A DNA stretch of 64,000 nt from NCBI RefSeq assembly GCF_965641715.1, contig NZ_OZ282453.1; one strand, written 5' to 3'. The position numbers were made by a program. Numbering within the stretch: position 1 is the stretch's first letter; every line of letters starts with the position of its first letter. Shown here in pieces: positions 50,423-53,400 of the stretch. This DNA is from Escherichia coli (GTDB taxonomy: Bacteria; Pseudomonadota; Gammaproteobacteria; Enterobacterales; Enterobacteriaceae).

Positions 50423-53400
50423 AAGATCGTGCAAATTCAATATATTGCAGGAAGTATGTAGGCCTGATAAGCGTAGCGCATCAGGCAGTTTTGCTTTTGC
50501 CATCACTCTCAAGGGCCGCGAAAGCGGCCCTTTTTTTACTTAGTAGAGATAAACGGAACTGTGCTGCCGGGGATCATGGTATTGGGCAGTTTACCGTCCC
50601 AACGTTCGGCAGTGGTGAGGGCTACAAGTCCGGGATTATCTCGCAGAGCTTCACCGCGCAGGCGGATTGCTTCTGCTTCAGCCGCACTTTTTAAACGAAT
50701 AGTTTCAGCCTCTGCCGCGCCTCTTACGCGAATAGTTTCCGCTTCTGCTTTGGCTGCCGCCAGTTTACTGTCTGCTTCTGCCTGGGCCTGAGTTACCGCT
50801 ATTTGCGCCTGGATTTTCTCTGTTTCCAGATTTTGCTTACGCGTGGCAATGGCGACTTCTGCTTTCATTCGGTCTTCAATCGACTTTTCATAAGCGTCAG
50901 AAAAATCAATATTTTCAATCTGGACCCCGTCAATTACCACTGGCCCAACAACGGCTTTGCGCATGGCATTTTGCAGATCCTGAACCAGTTTTGTACGATC
51001 CTGTACAGCGCTGATGGCGGTATATTGGCCGAAAACGTTCTCCAGTTGAGTTGGCAACTGACGGACAATCAGACGATCTTTTAATGCTTCAATGGTGTTG
51101 TAGGTGGTATAAACCGCGCCTGCTTCTGAAGGTTTAATGTGGAAGCTGACTGATACTGTCATTTGTGCCGGTTGCTGGTCGCGGCTGTAGGCCTGTAATC
51201 CCTGATAGACCACAGCCTGATTACGCGTGGAAATTTTCTCCACGCTTTCCATAAACGGGATCTTAAAACCCAGACCCGGCTCGGCAACTTTTACGATTTT
51301 TCCGTAGCGCAGCAAAATGCCGCGTTCACCTTCATTAACGGTGTAATACGAGAGAAATGGCAGCACAACCACGGCAAGCACGCCAATGGCGATAGCAAGA
51401 GATTTTTGTGGGCGAAATGAGGTTAATGAAACAGGTGCTTTCATGACAATCTTCCTTGAGTAAAGTGTGGGAATATGTCACATGAGATGAGGAGAAAACA
51501 GCCGACAGGTGAGAATTCAGAATCTATAAAGGGGTATAGCGAAAAAACATTGTATTAGAAAAGTATGTTTTCGAACATTCAATAAATAAATAGAGATATG
51601 CATCACAAATACAATAACAAACAAAATGTTGATTTTGTGATAAACATAACAAATACAAAGTTGACTTTAAAAATATTAATTTCATATTGTTGTTATTTAA
51701 GGTTTTATTATTTTGGTTTATGGGGTTTTTCTTCTCGCGTACCCAATTGCTTTCATTAAACCGCACGAGTATTTTATTTTTACCGCCGGACGGTACCCTA
51801 AAAATAAAATAAGGATAATTTATGCGGCTTAGTGATTATTTTCCAGAATCATCAATCTCAGTTATACATTCAGCAAAAGATTGGCAGGAAGCTATCGATT
51901 TCTCGATGGTATCATTGCTGGATAAAAACTATATCAGCGAGAATTACATTCAGGCAATTAAAGATTCCACCATCAACAATGGCCCTTATTATATTCTCGC
52001 ACCAGGCGTGGCAATGCCTCATGCGCGACCGGAATGTGGGGCGCTTAAAACCGGGATGTCTTTGACGTTACTTAAACAAGGTGTTTATTTTCCGGGGAAT
52101 GACGAACCGATTAAATTACTCATCGGACTTTCTGCTGCCGATGCCGATTCGCACATTGGCGCTATTCAGGCGTTAAGTGAATTACTGTGCGAAGAAGAAA
52201 TACTCGAACAACTCTTAACAGCATCATCAGAAAAACAATTAGCGGACATTATCAGCCGCGGATAATTACTCTCTCCTCTACAGGATAATATTATGGAAAA
52301 CAAGTCTGCTCGTGCAAAGGTCCAGGCTTTTGGGGGCTTTTTGACTGCAATGGTCATCCCCAATATTGGTGCTTTTATTGCCTGGGGTTTTATTACTGCG
52401 TTATTTATTCCCACCGGTTGGCTGCCTAACGAACATTTCGCCAAAATTGTCGGCCCGATGATTACCTATTTATTGCCCGTGATGATTGGTTCTACCGGTG
52501 GTCATCTGGTCGGCGGTAAACGCGGCGCGGTCATGGGCGGAATAGGTACTATTGGTGTGATCGTCGGCGCAGAGATCCCGATGTTCCTTGGCTCAATGAT
52601 TATGGGGCCGCTCGGTGGTCTGGTCATAAAATATGTTGATAAGGCACTGGAAAAACGCATACCTGCCGGTTTTGAGATGGTTATCAATAACTTCTCATTA
52701 GGTATCGCGGGGATGCTCCTTTGTCTGCTGGGTTTTGAAGTGATCGGCCCGGCGGTGTTAATTGCCAATACTTTCGTCAAAGAGTGTATTGAGGCGCTGG
52801 TACATGCGGGTTATCTGCCTCTGCTGTCAGTCATCAATGAACCGGCGAAAGTGCTTTTCCTTAATAATGCGATCGATCAGGGCGTCTATTATCCGCTGGG
52901 AATGCAACAGGCTTCGGTTAACGGTAAATCCATCTTCTTTATGGTGGCCTCTAACCCAGGTCCGGGCCTGGGGCTGCTGCTGGCGTTTACCTTGTTTGGT
53001 AAAGGGATGAGTAAACGTTCTGCGCCCGGGGCGATGATTATTCACTTCCTCGGTGGGATCCACGAACTGTATTTCCCATATGTGCTGATGAAGCCGCTGG
53101 CTATTATTGCCATGATTGCGGGCGGTATGTCTGGCACATGGATGTTTAACTTACTGGACGGTGGTCTGGTGGCTGGCCCAAGTCCGGGGTCTATCTTTGC
53201 TTACCTGGCGCTGACGCCGAAAGGTTCGTTCCTGGCGACAATTGCCGGTGTTACGGTAGGTACCCTGGTGTCCTTTGCTATCACTTCGCTGATACTGAAG
53301 ATGGAAAAAACGGTGGAAACGGAGAGCGAAGATGAGTTTGCTAAGTCAGCCAATGCGGTTAAGGCGATGAAACAAGAGGGTGCATTCTCGTTAAGCAGGG

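What the first reader, a model, noticed from the sequence alone, without database searches (positions are those of the whole stretch)
50536..51444. Stand-alone SPFH/band-7 gene with in-frame tandem repeats between tktA and cmtB
A 302-aa band-7 family membrane protein is encoded convergent to tktA at a position where I recall no gene in K-12. Its 3' part (about 50650-50765) contains three in-frame ~33-nt tandem repeats encoding AEAE(T/A)IR(V/L)(R/K)(G/S)A units, a layout prone to copy-number variation.
Basis: partly seen in the sequence, partly recalled or inferred. Interest (0 to 1): 0.45.

Follow-up and report, generated by a model that had tools for sequence, protein, structure and literature searches.

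The report
Fifth E. coli SPFH protein, absent from K-12
This is a real, conserved gene for a membrane-scaffold (SPFH/prohibitin-type) protein that about a third of E. coli strains carry and K-12 lacks. Its "tandem repeats" are the 11-residue helix pattern typical of this family and do not vary between E. coli strains, so the finding is largely ordinary.

Summary
Window 50536-51444 (-) encodes a 302-aa protein with a strong Band_7/SPFH match. It is monocistronic, convergent with tktA and divergent from cmtB. K-12 lacks it: 1,427 bp here are replaced by 235 unrelated bp. Of 5,426 complete E. coli genomes, 1,829 carry the gene and 3,560 carry the K-12-type spacer. E. albertii, Kluyvera and Klebsiella have the gene next to tktA or the same glycolytic genes, and dN/dS is 0.03-0.05. 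It is therefore an old, constrained gene that was lost, not an island that was gained.

The three 33-nt units are real (26/33, 21/33 and 18/33 nt identical; background 8.8±2.6), and a fourth degenerate unit precedes them. They are diverged: Tandem Repeats Finder sees no array, and all 1,829 E. coli carriers have the same unit number. Between lineages the helix length moves in 11-residue steps (65/76/87 aa), and Escherichia has one extra unit. The units lie in a predicted 87-residue helix that follows the SPFH domain. QmcA and HflC show the same 11-residue periodicity.

Best reading: a homo-oligomeric SPFH cage protein facing the periplasm. It is annotated in RefSeq but uncharacterised. Relatives sit inside plasmid conjugation operons and in phages.

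The parts
50536..51444 (-). CDS of a 302-aa SPFH/Band-7 ('prohibitin family') protein; stop codon TAA at 50536-50538
   Evidence: ORF list. Pfam Band_7 E=5.6e-32. The same 909-bp CDS is annotated 'prohibitin family protein' in RefSeq genomes. dN/dS is 0.03-0.05.
51451..51457 (-). Shine-Dalgarno-like AAGGAAG, 6 nt upstream of the ATG
   Evidence: Read directly from the sequence.
51349..51411 (-). N-terminal transmembrane helix (aa 12-32), predicted N-in / C-out
   Evidence: AF2 helix 12-32. It is the only hydrophobic segment, and the N-terminal flank is more positive than the post-TM flank in 41 of 41 homologs.
50815..51342 (-). SPFH (Band_7) domain, aa 35-210
   Evidence: Pfam match covering 2-176 of 176 profile positions. 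The AF2 alpha/beta domain spans 33-181 at pLDDT about 85-95.
50638..50898 (-). Single long helix (aa 183-269), the equivalent of the CC1 'wall' helix of SPFH cages
   Evidence: AF2 helix H183-269. The full-length fold matches HflC, erlin, prohibitin, HflK, stomatin, QmcA and flotillin cage subunits.
50650..50781 (-). Four in-frame 33-nt / 11-aa units: u0 50749-50781 (degenerate), u1 50716-50748, u2 50683-50715, u3 50650-50682
   Evidence: The lag-11 autocorrelation has z=6.1. Escherichia has one unit more than all other sampled homologs.
50539..50637 (-). Conserved C-terminal tail (aa 270-302, ...LTTAERWDGKLPxTMIPGxxVPF), the probable cap-forming segment
   Evidence: Invariant or nearly invariant columns in 41 homologs. 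Low pLDDT in the monomer model. About 40-50% identical to the C-termini of prophage SPFH/'lipoprotein' genes. Matches phrog_38808.
50511..50532 (.). GC-rich hairpin AAGGGCCGCGAAAGCGGCCCTT directly after the SPFH stop codon; it has a T-run on the + strand
   Evidence: Terminator scan. A second copy lies at 50337-50358 (D2).
50337..50510 (.). 174-bp unit (hairpin copy plus a REP/BIME element) between tktA and the SPFH gene; its copy number varies among strains
   Evidence: ES036/naRNA4 REP-type Rfam matches; 1, 2 or 3 hairpins in different strains.
50317..51743 (.). Allele-specific segment (1,427 bp), replaced by 235 unrelated bp in K-12-type strains
   Evidence: blastn and global alignment of the two spacers. 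1,829 versus 3,560 genomes.
51445..51821 (.). AT-rich (about 30% GC) divergent control region shared with cmtB; only 51744-51821 is common to K-12
   Evidence: The scan found no sigma-70-like match on the - strand.

Best explanation
The gene encodes a single-pass inner-membrane protein of the SPFH (stomatin/prohibitin/flotillin/HflKC) superfamily. From the N-terminus it has a short positively charged cytoplasmic stub, one transmembrane helix, an SPFH domain, one ~87-residue helix and a conserved tail.

Shown here: family membership, the domain order, a fold match to every solved SPFH cage subunit, strong purifying selection, vertical inheritance next to tktA in Escherichia and Kluyvera (and beside the same epd-pgk-fbaA genes in Klebsiella), and absence from K-12-type strains.

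Inferred: like HflC, the protein is oriented N-in, with the SPFH domain and helix in the periplasm. Because there is no partner paralog and no nfeD gene, it probably assembles as a homo-oligomeric ring or cage on the periplasmic face of the inner membrane. The long helices would form the wall and the conserved tails the cap. Such a cage would enclose a membrane patch and the proteins in it, giving a scaffold or quality-control role as for HflKC and prohibitin.

The 'tandem repeats' are the 11-residue (hendecad) periodicity of the wall helix. Eleven residues are almost exactly three helical turns, so gaining or losing whole units changes helix length by about 16 Å without rotating the packing face. 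This would explain why the lineages differ by 11 or 22 residues (65/76/87). Escherichia fixed one extra unit through an old duplication (79% nt identity now). The gene is ancestral at this locus, and about two thirds of E. coli, including K-12, lost it through a replacement of the spacer.
For: Family and architecture: Pfam Band_7 E=5.6e-32. The AF2 model has mean pLDDT 82, with TM 12-32, SPFH 33-181 and helix 183-269. Top Foldseek PDB hits are HflC 7vhq_G (3.8e-17), erlin1/2, PHB1/2, HflK, stomatin, QmcA and flotillin, all over about 300 aligned columns. The profile search against PDB gives HflC 1e-20, HflK 2e-12 and prohibitin 1e-10 over positions 22-265.

Topology: the N-terminal flank is more positive than the post-TM flank in 41 of 41 homologs, matching HflC and opposite to QmcA. 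[quoted passage not shown]

Stand-alone status: the neighbours are tktA (convergent) and cmtB (divergent), with no nfeD gene and no second SPFH gene.

Functional constraint: dN/dS is 0.047 against Nissle, 0.026 against E. albertii and 0.028 against Kluyvera.

Ancestry: the gene is at the same locus in E. albertii. It lies next to tktA in Kluyvera and beside the same epd-pgk-fbaA genes in Klebsiella spallanzanii, where the contig ends before the tktA side. GC content is about 46-54%, slightly below the flanking genes.

Polymorphism: 1,829 genomes carry the gene and 3,560 carry the K-12-type spacer, out of 5,426.

Repeats: unit identities are. The spacing between two conserved motifs is 76 aa in 89 cluster representatives, 87 aa in 8 (Escherichia) and 65 aa in 1. 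The phage Skarpretter homolog has an 11-aa gap. Unit-exact deletions occur in P0014 and P0011. Lag 11 is the best autocorrelation lag in QmcA (z=8.3), HflC (z=3.7) and the Kluyvera ortholog (z=4.8) as well.

General SPFH cage architecture (SPFH1/2, CC1, CC2, C-terminal cap): bioRxiv 10.1101/2025.04.21.649849.
Against: There is no experimental evidence for expression, topology, oligomeric state or clients. The simple scan found no sigma-70-like promoter on the gene's strand. The monomer model cannot show a cage, and the C-terminal 27 residues have low confidence. The NCBIfam HflC and HflK equivalog scores are far below their cut-offs, so an FtsH-modulating role cannot be transferred by orthology. 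I found no paper that describes the 11-residue periodicity as a cage-height rule, so that part is my inference from general coiled-coil geometry. A few singleton metagenomic variants have 3-7 aa deletions in the helix that are not multiples of 11. These may be assembly errors, but they do not fit the rule.
Confidence: 0.75

Rival explanations
1. The gene is a recently acquired mobile-element cargo (a small genomic islet) inserted between tktA and cmtB in non-K-12 strains, not an ancestral gene lost by K-12.
For: Close relatives are carried by conjugative plasmids (Enterobacter IncFII/IncR at 73% identity; 73 Pseudomonas plasmid records) and by phages (GAP32-like jumbo phages at 51-53%, Skarpretter at 46%). 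A Klebsiella oxytoca paralog lies in an ICE-like region. The upstream region is AT-rich. Presence is patchy within E. coli.
Against: The gene sits in the same position and orientation next to tktA in E. albertii and Kluyvera, and beside the same epd-pgk-fbaA genes in Klebsiella spallanzanii. Synonymous divergence to E. albertii (dS 0.69) is of the order expected for an old resident gene, though higher than the flanking genes (dS 0.22-0.53). There is no integrase, att duplication or mobility gene, and the boundaries show replacement by unrelated sequence rather than an insertion scar. GC content is about 46-54%.
Confidence: 0.1
2. The 33-nt units are a hypervariable in-frame repeat (VNTR or contingency-type) that makes protein length differ from strain to strain.
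For: In-frame 33-nt periodicity. Unit-exact deletions exist in one E. albertii genome (-22 aa) and one metagenomic contig (-11 aa). Escherichia has one unit more than other genera.
Against: None of the 1,829 complete E. coli genomes that carry the gene differs in unit number. The units are only 55-79% identical in nucleotide sequence, and the longest shared run is 11 nt. TRF finds no array. The same periodicity is present in the non-variable paralogs QmcA and HflC.
Confidence: 0.04
3. The protein is an extra HflC-like subunit or modulator of the FtsH protease. It would either join HflK/HflC cages or form its own cage around FtsH.
For: The best sequence and fold matches are to HflC. The TM-proximal motif EGERG(I/V)xLR(F/Y)GK is shared with HflC (alignment). 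The predicted periplasmic orientation is the same. Prohibitins and HflKC both work with FtsH-type AAA proteases (PMC2636767).
Against: The HflC and HflK equivalog models are far below threshold (60.5 vs 134.4 bits; 37.4 vs 159.4). The sequence match to HflC covers only the N-terminal half. There is no genetic linkage to ftsH, hflK or hflC. Paralogs sit in T4SS operons and in phages, which suggests other clients.
Confidence: 0.2
4. The ORF is a decaying relic with no function in the strains that retain it.
For: Two thirds of E. coli do without it. The scan found no promoter. Truncated or frameshifted variants occur occasionally (P0015, P0012).
Against: dN/dS is 0.03-0.05 across three depths of divergence. 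The reading frame is intact at 302 aa in the dominant cluster of 2,037 member sequences. The gene has a good Shine-Dalgarno sequence.
Confidence: 0.03

Closest known systems
HflC / HflK (E. coli FtsH-modulating SPFH pair; PDB 7vhp, 7vhq, 7wi3, 9cz1)
   Same: It shares the N-terminal TM helix, SPFH domain, long helix and C-terminal tail. It is the best sequence and fold match. The EGERG motif after the TM helix is shared, and the predicted orientation is N-in with a periplasmic domain.
   Different: It is a single gene rather than a K/C pair. It scores below both NCBIfam equivalog cut-offs. It lacks HflC's insertion in the SPFH domain and HflK's long N- and C-terminal extensions (302 aa against 334 and 419). 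No link to FtsH has been shown.
Prohibitin family (eukaryotic PHB1/PHB2; prokaryotic 'SPFH4' of Hinderhofer et al. 2009, PMC2636767)
   Same: RefSeq names it 'prohibitin family protein'. The profile matches prohibitin chains over nearly full length, positions 22-265, at E=1e-10, and the fold match to PHB1/2 is 2.6e-15. Size and domain order are similar. Bacterial members were described as uninvestigated.
   Different: Prohibitins are obligate hetero-oligomers of two paralogs, and here there is one gene. Sequence identity is only about 16-20%.
QmcA (E. coli stomatin-type SPFH; PDB 8z5g) and YqiK
   Same: It has the SPFH domain followed by a helix with a very clear 11-residue repeat (AEGIRQAEILK / AEGEKQSQILK / AEGERQSAFLQ). 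Per the PDB entry listing, the QmcA-YbbJ structure 8z5g holds 26 QmcA chains.
   Different: QmcA and YqiK are encoded with an nfeD partner and face the cytoplasm. This gene has no nfeD neighbour and is predicted to have the opposite orientation.
Plasmid- and phage-borne 'prohibitin family' / band 7 proteins (Enterobacter IncFII/IncR tra-operon gene WP_045340601; Escherichia phage Skarpretter gp07; Cronobacter phage GAP32_025; PHROG 200)
   Same: They belong to the same clade at 46-74% identity over about 90% of the length, with the same C-terminal motif.
   Different: Those copies have one 11-aa unit fewer. They sit in conjugation (traB...traV; upstream of SLT/VirB2-4) or phage early-gene contexts. 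The E. coli copy is chromosomal, vertically inherited and flanked by housekeeping genes.

Membership tests
SPFH / Band 7 superfamily (Pfam PF01145) | Band_7 domain above Pfam's gathering score | tested here: met
   111.6 bits against a cut-off of 23.6, E=5.6e-32, profile positions 2-176 of 176.
SPFH / Band 7 superfamily (Pfam PF01145) | N-terminal membrane anchor followed by the SPFH domain and a long C-terminal coiled-coil helix | tested here: met
   AF2 shows helix 12-32, an alpha/beta domain 33-181 and helix 183-269. There is a single hydrophobic segment.
SPFH / Band 7 superfamily (Pfam PF01145) | Full-length fold like that of solved cage subunits | tested here: met
   Foldseek E-values of 1e-17 to 1e-9 to HflC/K, erlin, prohibitin, stomatin, QmcA and flotillin over about 260-310 columns.
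SPFH / Band 7 superfamily (Pfam PF01145) | Assembly into a large ring or cage oligomer on a membrane | not testable with these tools
   Only a monomer can be modelled here. This needs multimer prediction or cryo-EM.
HflC / HflK (FtsH modulators) | Score above the NCBIfam equivalog cut-off | tested here: not met
   TIGR01932 hflC scores 60.5 against 134.4, and TIGR01933 hflK scores 37.4 against 159.4.
HflC / HflK (FtsH modulators) | Two adjacent paralogous genes (hflK-hflC) forming a hetero-oligomer | tested here: not met
   The gene is monocistronic between tktA and cmtB. The K-12 hflK-hflC operon is elsewhere.
HflC / HflK (FtsH modulators) | Type II topology with the SPFH domain in the periplasm | tested here: inconclusive
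   The positive-inside rule favours N-in in 41 of 41 homologs, matching HflC. This is a prediction only.
HflC / HflK (FtsH modulators) | Physical and functional interaction with FtsH | not testable with these tools
   Needs co-purification or substrate-turnover assays.
Prohibitin family (SPFH4 / 'prohibitin family protein') | Significant near-full-length similarity to prohibitins | tested here: met
   The profile search against PDB gives prohibitin 9urz_B at E=1e-10 over 22-265 and PHB2 at 1.2e-10. The RefSeq product name agrees. The phage ortholog carries a 'SPFH_prohibitin' domain note.
Prohibitin family (SPFH4 / 'prohibitin family protein') | Alternating hetero-oligomer of two paralogs (PHB1/PHB2) | tested here: not met
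   There is only one gene at the locus.
NfeD-linked SPFH (QmcA/YqiK, stomatin- and flotillin-type) | Operon with an nfeD gene | tested here: not met
   No nfeD-like ORF flanks the gene, in contrast with ybbJ-qmcA.
NfeD-linked SPFH (QmcA/YqiK, stomatin- and flotillin-type) | Cytoplasm-facing orientation | tested here: not met
   The charge distribution predicts the opposite orientation to QmcA. This is a prediction only.
Variable-number tandem repeat / contingency locus | Near-identical DNA units detectable as a tandem array | tested here: not met
   TRF finds no 33-nt array. Unit nucleotide identities are 79%, 64% and 55%.
Variable-number tandem repeat / contingency locus | Unit number differs among strains of the species | tested here: not met
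   None of 1,829 complete E. coli genomes with the gene deviates. Only rare unit-exact deletions were seen outside E. coli or in metagenomes.
Anti-phage defence systems (PADLOC-DB) | Match to a known defence-system protein model | tested here: not met
   No PADLOC family at E<=0.01.

The most novel reading that the evidence does not exclude
E. coli has a fifth SPFH cage protein that all K-12-based SPFH genetics has missed, including the 'all-SPFH' quadruple mutants. It belongs to a clade that conjugative plasmids place inside their type IV secretion (tra/virB) operons and that phages carry in early regions. It may therefore form a periplasm-facing homo-oligomeric cage that serves or guards envelope-spanning machines, or mobile-element entry, rather than FtsH. 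Its cage height would be set in 11-residue steps, with Escherichia one step taller.
Probability: 0.2. Interest if true: 0.55.

Novelty: new member of a known kind. Interest (0 to 1): 0.3.

Why it matters
E. coli SPFH biology is built on K-12, which is said to have four SPFH proteins: HflK, HflC, QmcA and YqiK (PMC10434171). About a third of complete E. coli genomes carry a fifth, strongly constrained SPFH gene with HflC-like predicted topology. The carriers include UPEC 536, EC958 (ST131), Nissle 1917, IHE3034 and an O127:H6 strain. Phenotypes of SPFH-null K-12 strains therefore need not carry over to these lineages, and redundancy with HflKC is untested there.

The 11-residue step pattern (65/76/87 aa) offers a simple natural series for testing how helix length sets SPFH cage geometry.

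Beyond that, the finding is ordinary. It is an annotated member of a well-known superfamily, and its repeats are a family trait, not a variable locus.

Tried and rejected
- Tandem Repeats Finder on 50300-51700 at minimum score 30 gave only a chance 11-nt hit and no 33-nt array.
- tblastn of the protein against the K-12 spacer found no gene remnant. Alignment of the K-12 235-bp segment to the window gave only weak matches typical of AT-rich sequence, so the loss mechanism (deletion plus divergence, or replacement) stays open.
- The promoter scan found no sigma-70-like site on the gene's strand. The only hits point toward cmtB.
- Rfam found nothing upstream of the gene. Its only hits were REP-derived (ES036, naRNA4) in the tktA-proximal spacer.
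- PADLOC gave no defence-system match.
- Literature searches for 'prohibitin family protein' plus E. coli, for the WP_ accessions, and for SPFH plus hendecad returned nothing on this protein or on the 11-residue rule. The EruA/LF82 paper only cites the four K-12 SPFH genes.
- The P. aeruginosa PaFlo paper was checked for an ortholog with functional data. None could be tied to this clade, and its mutants had little phenotype.
- I considered and rejected the shadow ORFs on the + strand (50561-50791 and 50803-51084). They are alanine- and leucine-rich reverse-frame artefacts of the coding gene.
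Full report
**1. The observation**

The ORF at window 50536-51444 (- strand) is real and has exactly the stated limits. It has an ATG start and encodes 302 aa. A Shine-Dalgarno-like AAGGAAG lies 6 nt upstream of the start. RefSeq annotates the same 909-bp CDS in other strains. The gene is convergent with tktA (stop at 50316) and divergent from cmtB (start at 51822). No co-oriented neighbour exists, so "stand-alone" is correct.

Pfam Band_7 (PF01145) matches residues 35-210 with E=5.6e-32, scoring 111.6 bits against a gathering score of 23.6.

The repeats are also real. The in-frame 33-nt units are:
- u1, 50716-50748 (AEAETIRVRGA)
- u2, 50683-50715 (AEAETIRLKSA)
- u3, 50650-50682 (AEAEAIRLRGE)
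- u0, 50749-50781 (AEADSKLAAAK), a degenerate fourth unit that precedes them

Nucleotide identities are u1/u2 26/33, u1/u3 21/33 and u2/u3 18/33. Other in-frame 33-mers of the same gene average 8.8±2.6 identities, with a maximum of 21. The repeat finder recovers the 33-nt spacing independently. Tandem Repeats Finder reports no 33-nt array even at its lowest threshold. These are old, diverged units, not a young DNA array.

**2. K-12 and the species**

MG1655 has only a 313-bp spacer between tktA and cmtB, against 1,505 bp here. Only the 78 bp next to cmtB (window 51744-51821) are shared. The remaining 1,427 bp (50317-51743) are replaced in K-12 by 235 unrelated bp that carry a different terminator hairpin. 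No remnant of the gene is detectable.

Among 5,426 complete E. coli genomes, 1,829 carry the gene, always annotated "prohibitin family protein" or "SPFH domain-containing protein" between tkt and cmtB. A further 3,560 carry the K-12-type spacer. This is a clean two-allele polymorphism of about 34% to 66%. Carriers include Nissle 1917, IHE3034, 536, EC958, an O127:H6 strain, SMS-3-5, ST648 and O145 RM9872. RM6067W, a 5.5-Mb isolate from spinach, has the K-12 allele.

**3. Ancestral or acquired?**

E. albertii has the gene at the same place and in the same orientation. Kluyvera intermedia has it convergent with tktA, with epd-pgk-fbaA on the other side. Klebsiella spallanzanii has it beside the same epd-pgk-fbaA genes, though its contig ends before the tktA side. 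The cmt-yggP block is missing from these two.

dN/dS is 0.047 against Nissle, 0.026 against E. albertii and 0.028 against Kluyvera. Synonymous divergence from E. albertii (dS 0.69) is of the order expected for an old resident gene, though higher than the flanking genes (0.22-0.53). GC content is about 46-54%, slightly below the flanking genes. No mobility genes flank it.

I conclude that the gene is an old resident of this locus in Enterobacteriaceae. It is under strong purifying selection and was lost from K-12-type E. coli by replacement of the spacer.

**4. What the protein is**

An AlphaFold2 model built on 41 homologs has a mean pLDDT of 82. It shows:
- a transmembrane helix at residues 12-32
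- an alpha/beta SPFH domain at 33-181
- one uninterrupted helix at 183-269
- a short helix at 272-279
- a low-confidence tail

Foldseek against the PDB aligns nearly the whole chain to every solved SPFH cage subunit. HflC is best (7vhq_G, E=3.8e-17), followed by erlin1/2, PHB1/2, HflK, stomatin, QmcA and flotillin.

By sequence, the closest solved relatives are HflC (profile E=1e-20, N-terminal half only), HflK (2e-12) and prohibitin (1e-10 over positions 22-265). It is not an HflC or HflK ortholog: both NCBIfam equivalog models score far below their cut-offs. There is no paired paralog, and no nfeD gene as there is for qmcA. It fits the "prokaryotic prohibitin" group (SPFH4), which Hinderhofer et al. 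described as the most diverse subfamily with no investigated bacterial member (PMC2636767).

The segment before the TM helix carries a net positive charge, and the segment after it is neutral. This holds in 41 of 41 homologs, matches HflC, and is the opposite of QmcA. I therefore infer an N-in orientation with the SPFH domain in the periplasm. [quoted passage not shown]

**5. What the repeats are**

The units occupy residues 222-265, the distal half of the long helix. In solved SPFH complexes this helix (CC1) forms the wall of a domed cage, and the C-terminal segments form its cap (bioRxiv 10.1101/2025.04.21.649849).

An 11-residue lag is the strongest self-similarity in this helix (z=6.1). 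It is also the strongest lag in the two-unit Kluyvera ortholog (z=4.8), in E. coli QmcA (z=8.3; AEGIRQAEILK/AEGEKQSQILK/AEGERQSAFLQ) and in HflC (z=3.7). HflK peaks at lag 22. The periodicity is therefore a family trait.

Length differences between lineages come in whole units. The spacing between the conserved RMxAEV and AERWDG motifs is 76 aa in 89 cluster representatives, 87 aa in the 8 Escherichia ones and 65 aa in one E. albertii protein. The alignment places a clean 11-aa insertion in E. coli and E. albertii relative to all other homologs, and the phage Skarpretter homolog shows the same 11-aa gap. The E. albertii variant P0014 lacks exactly u0+u1, and a metagenomic E. coli-like sequence lacks exactly u1.

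Eleven residues are about three helical turns (established coiled-coil geometry). Whole-unit changes should therefore lengthen or shorten the wall helix by about 16 Å without rotating its packing face. This explanation is my inference; I found no paper that states it.

**6. Is the repeat variable among strains?**

No. A 121-nt query spanning the three units matches all 1,829 carrier genomes in one place each, at >=80% coverage and >=90% identity, and every listed row is a single piece with equal query and record spans. A one-unit deletion would leave at most 73% coverage. A one-unit insertion would drop identity to about 79% or split the match. The 181-nt query gave the same picture.

**7. Relatives on mobile elements**

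The same clade appears in several mobile contexts:
- On conjugative plasmids. In Enterobacter IncFII/IncR plasmids, a 73%-identical gene lies inside the F-type tra operon between traB and traV.
- On a Salmonella IncFII contig, where a 64% paralog lies just upstream of SLT/VirB2/VirB3/VirB4 genes.
- In a Klebsiella oxytoca ICE-like region.
- On 73 Pseudomonas plasmid records at under 60% identity (58-59% for those listed). In one of these, pPHE24, the gene lies near an sppA gene.
- In phages: GAP32-type jumbo phages (51-53%, early region) and Skarpretter gp07 (46%, between primase/helicase and dUTPase genes).

The protein matches PHROG 200 (E=2.5e-63), and its last 58 residues match PHROG 38808. 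The C-terminal 65-94 residues are 40-50% identical to prophage SPFH/"lipoprotein" genes of phiP27, Stx2 phages and P88. PADLOC has no match.

These contexts hint at a role at the periplasmic face of the inner membrane linked to envelope-spanning machines. That is a lead, not a result.

**8. Verdict**

The gene is a bona fide, constrained and uncharacterised SPFH/prohibitin-type protein. It is already annotated in RefSeq, absent from K-12, and present in about a third of E. coli. The most likely mechanism is a periplasm-facing homo-oligomeric cage or scaffold on the inner membrane. Architecture and family are shown; topology, oligomeric state and clients are inferred. The repeats are the family's hendecad helix pattern, with one Escherichia-specific extra unit that is fixed within E. 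coli.

Interest is modest. The most useful point is that K-12-centred SPFH genetics misses this fifth paralog. No paper in the searchable library addresses it.

Noticed in passing
window 50337-50532: The tktA-SPFH spacer holds a 174-bp unit made of a 22-nt GC hairpin (AAGGGCCGCGAAAGCGGCCCTT) plus a REP/BIME element, closed by a second hairpin copy. Strains differ in hairpin number. F1022 has one (45-bp spacer), and Kluyvera has a single related hairpin in a 46-bp spacer. The window, PapM-32-1, Nissle and E. albertii have two, one copy being slightly diverged in the last two. eco-241 has three (393-bp spacer). This is the true copy-number-variable tandem repeat at the locus, not the in-gene units.
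   Followed up: partly
window 49700-50316 (3' third of tktA): The last ~600 nt of tktA are only 92-94% identical between E. coli lineages (window vs K-12 vs Nissle), against >=98% in the 5' part. That is about as diverged as E. coli vs E. albertii. It suggests old alleles or a recombination boundary next to the presence/absence junction.
   Followed up: partly
window 51450-51750: A 29-30% GC stretch lies upstream of both the SPFH gene and cmtB, with direct repeats at 51595-51668 (GATAtGCATcACAAATACAA x2 and ATAACAAAxAxAAxGTTGAxTTT x2) and small inverted repeats. It is specific to the SPFH allele; K-12 has a different AT-rich sequence and shares only 51744-51821. It may hold regulator or H-NS sites. 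The only sigma-70-like hits point toward cmtB.
   Followed up: no
L019 4905-5789 (Enterobacter hormaechei plasmid pMB9539_2); L016 5001-5885 (Salmonella IncFII contig): Paralogs at 73% and 64% identity are embedded in conjugation operons. One lies between traB and traV of an F-type tra operon. The other lies directly upstream of SLT/VirB2/VirB3/VirB4 genes.
   Followed up: partly
L013 1868-2698 (phage P88); phiP27 and Stx2 phages: The C-terminal ~65-94 residues (repeat units plus the AERWDGKLP...VPF tail) are 40-50% identical to prophage genes annotated variously as lipoprotein, serine protease or SPFH protein. The N-terminal parts are much more diverged, which suggests a conserved cap module.
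   Followed up: partly
aa 80-90 of the protein (window about 51175-51205); P0002, P0005: Other small in-frame duplications occur in this gene in relatives. A Shigella flexneri protein has a 7-aa insertion (QQPATSN), and the E. albertii type-strain protein has a 3-aa QGL duplication. Both lie in the SPFH domain, away from the 11-aa units.
   Followed up: no
L004/L014 vs window 51822-55000: In Kluyvera and Klebsiella spallanzanii the SPFH gene abuts epd-pgk-fbaA. The cmtBA-yggP-glpX-like-mtlR-like block that separates them in Escherichia is absent, so that block looks like an Escherichia-lineage insertion next to the SPFH gene.
   Followed up: no
hit H103 (NZ_CP134663.1): A 4.9-Mb E. coli record in the plasmid collection carries the gene at 98.7% identity. 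From its size it appears to be a chromosome filed as a plasmid, which explains the single 'plasmid' place.
   Followed up: no
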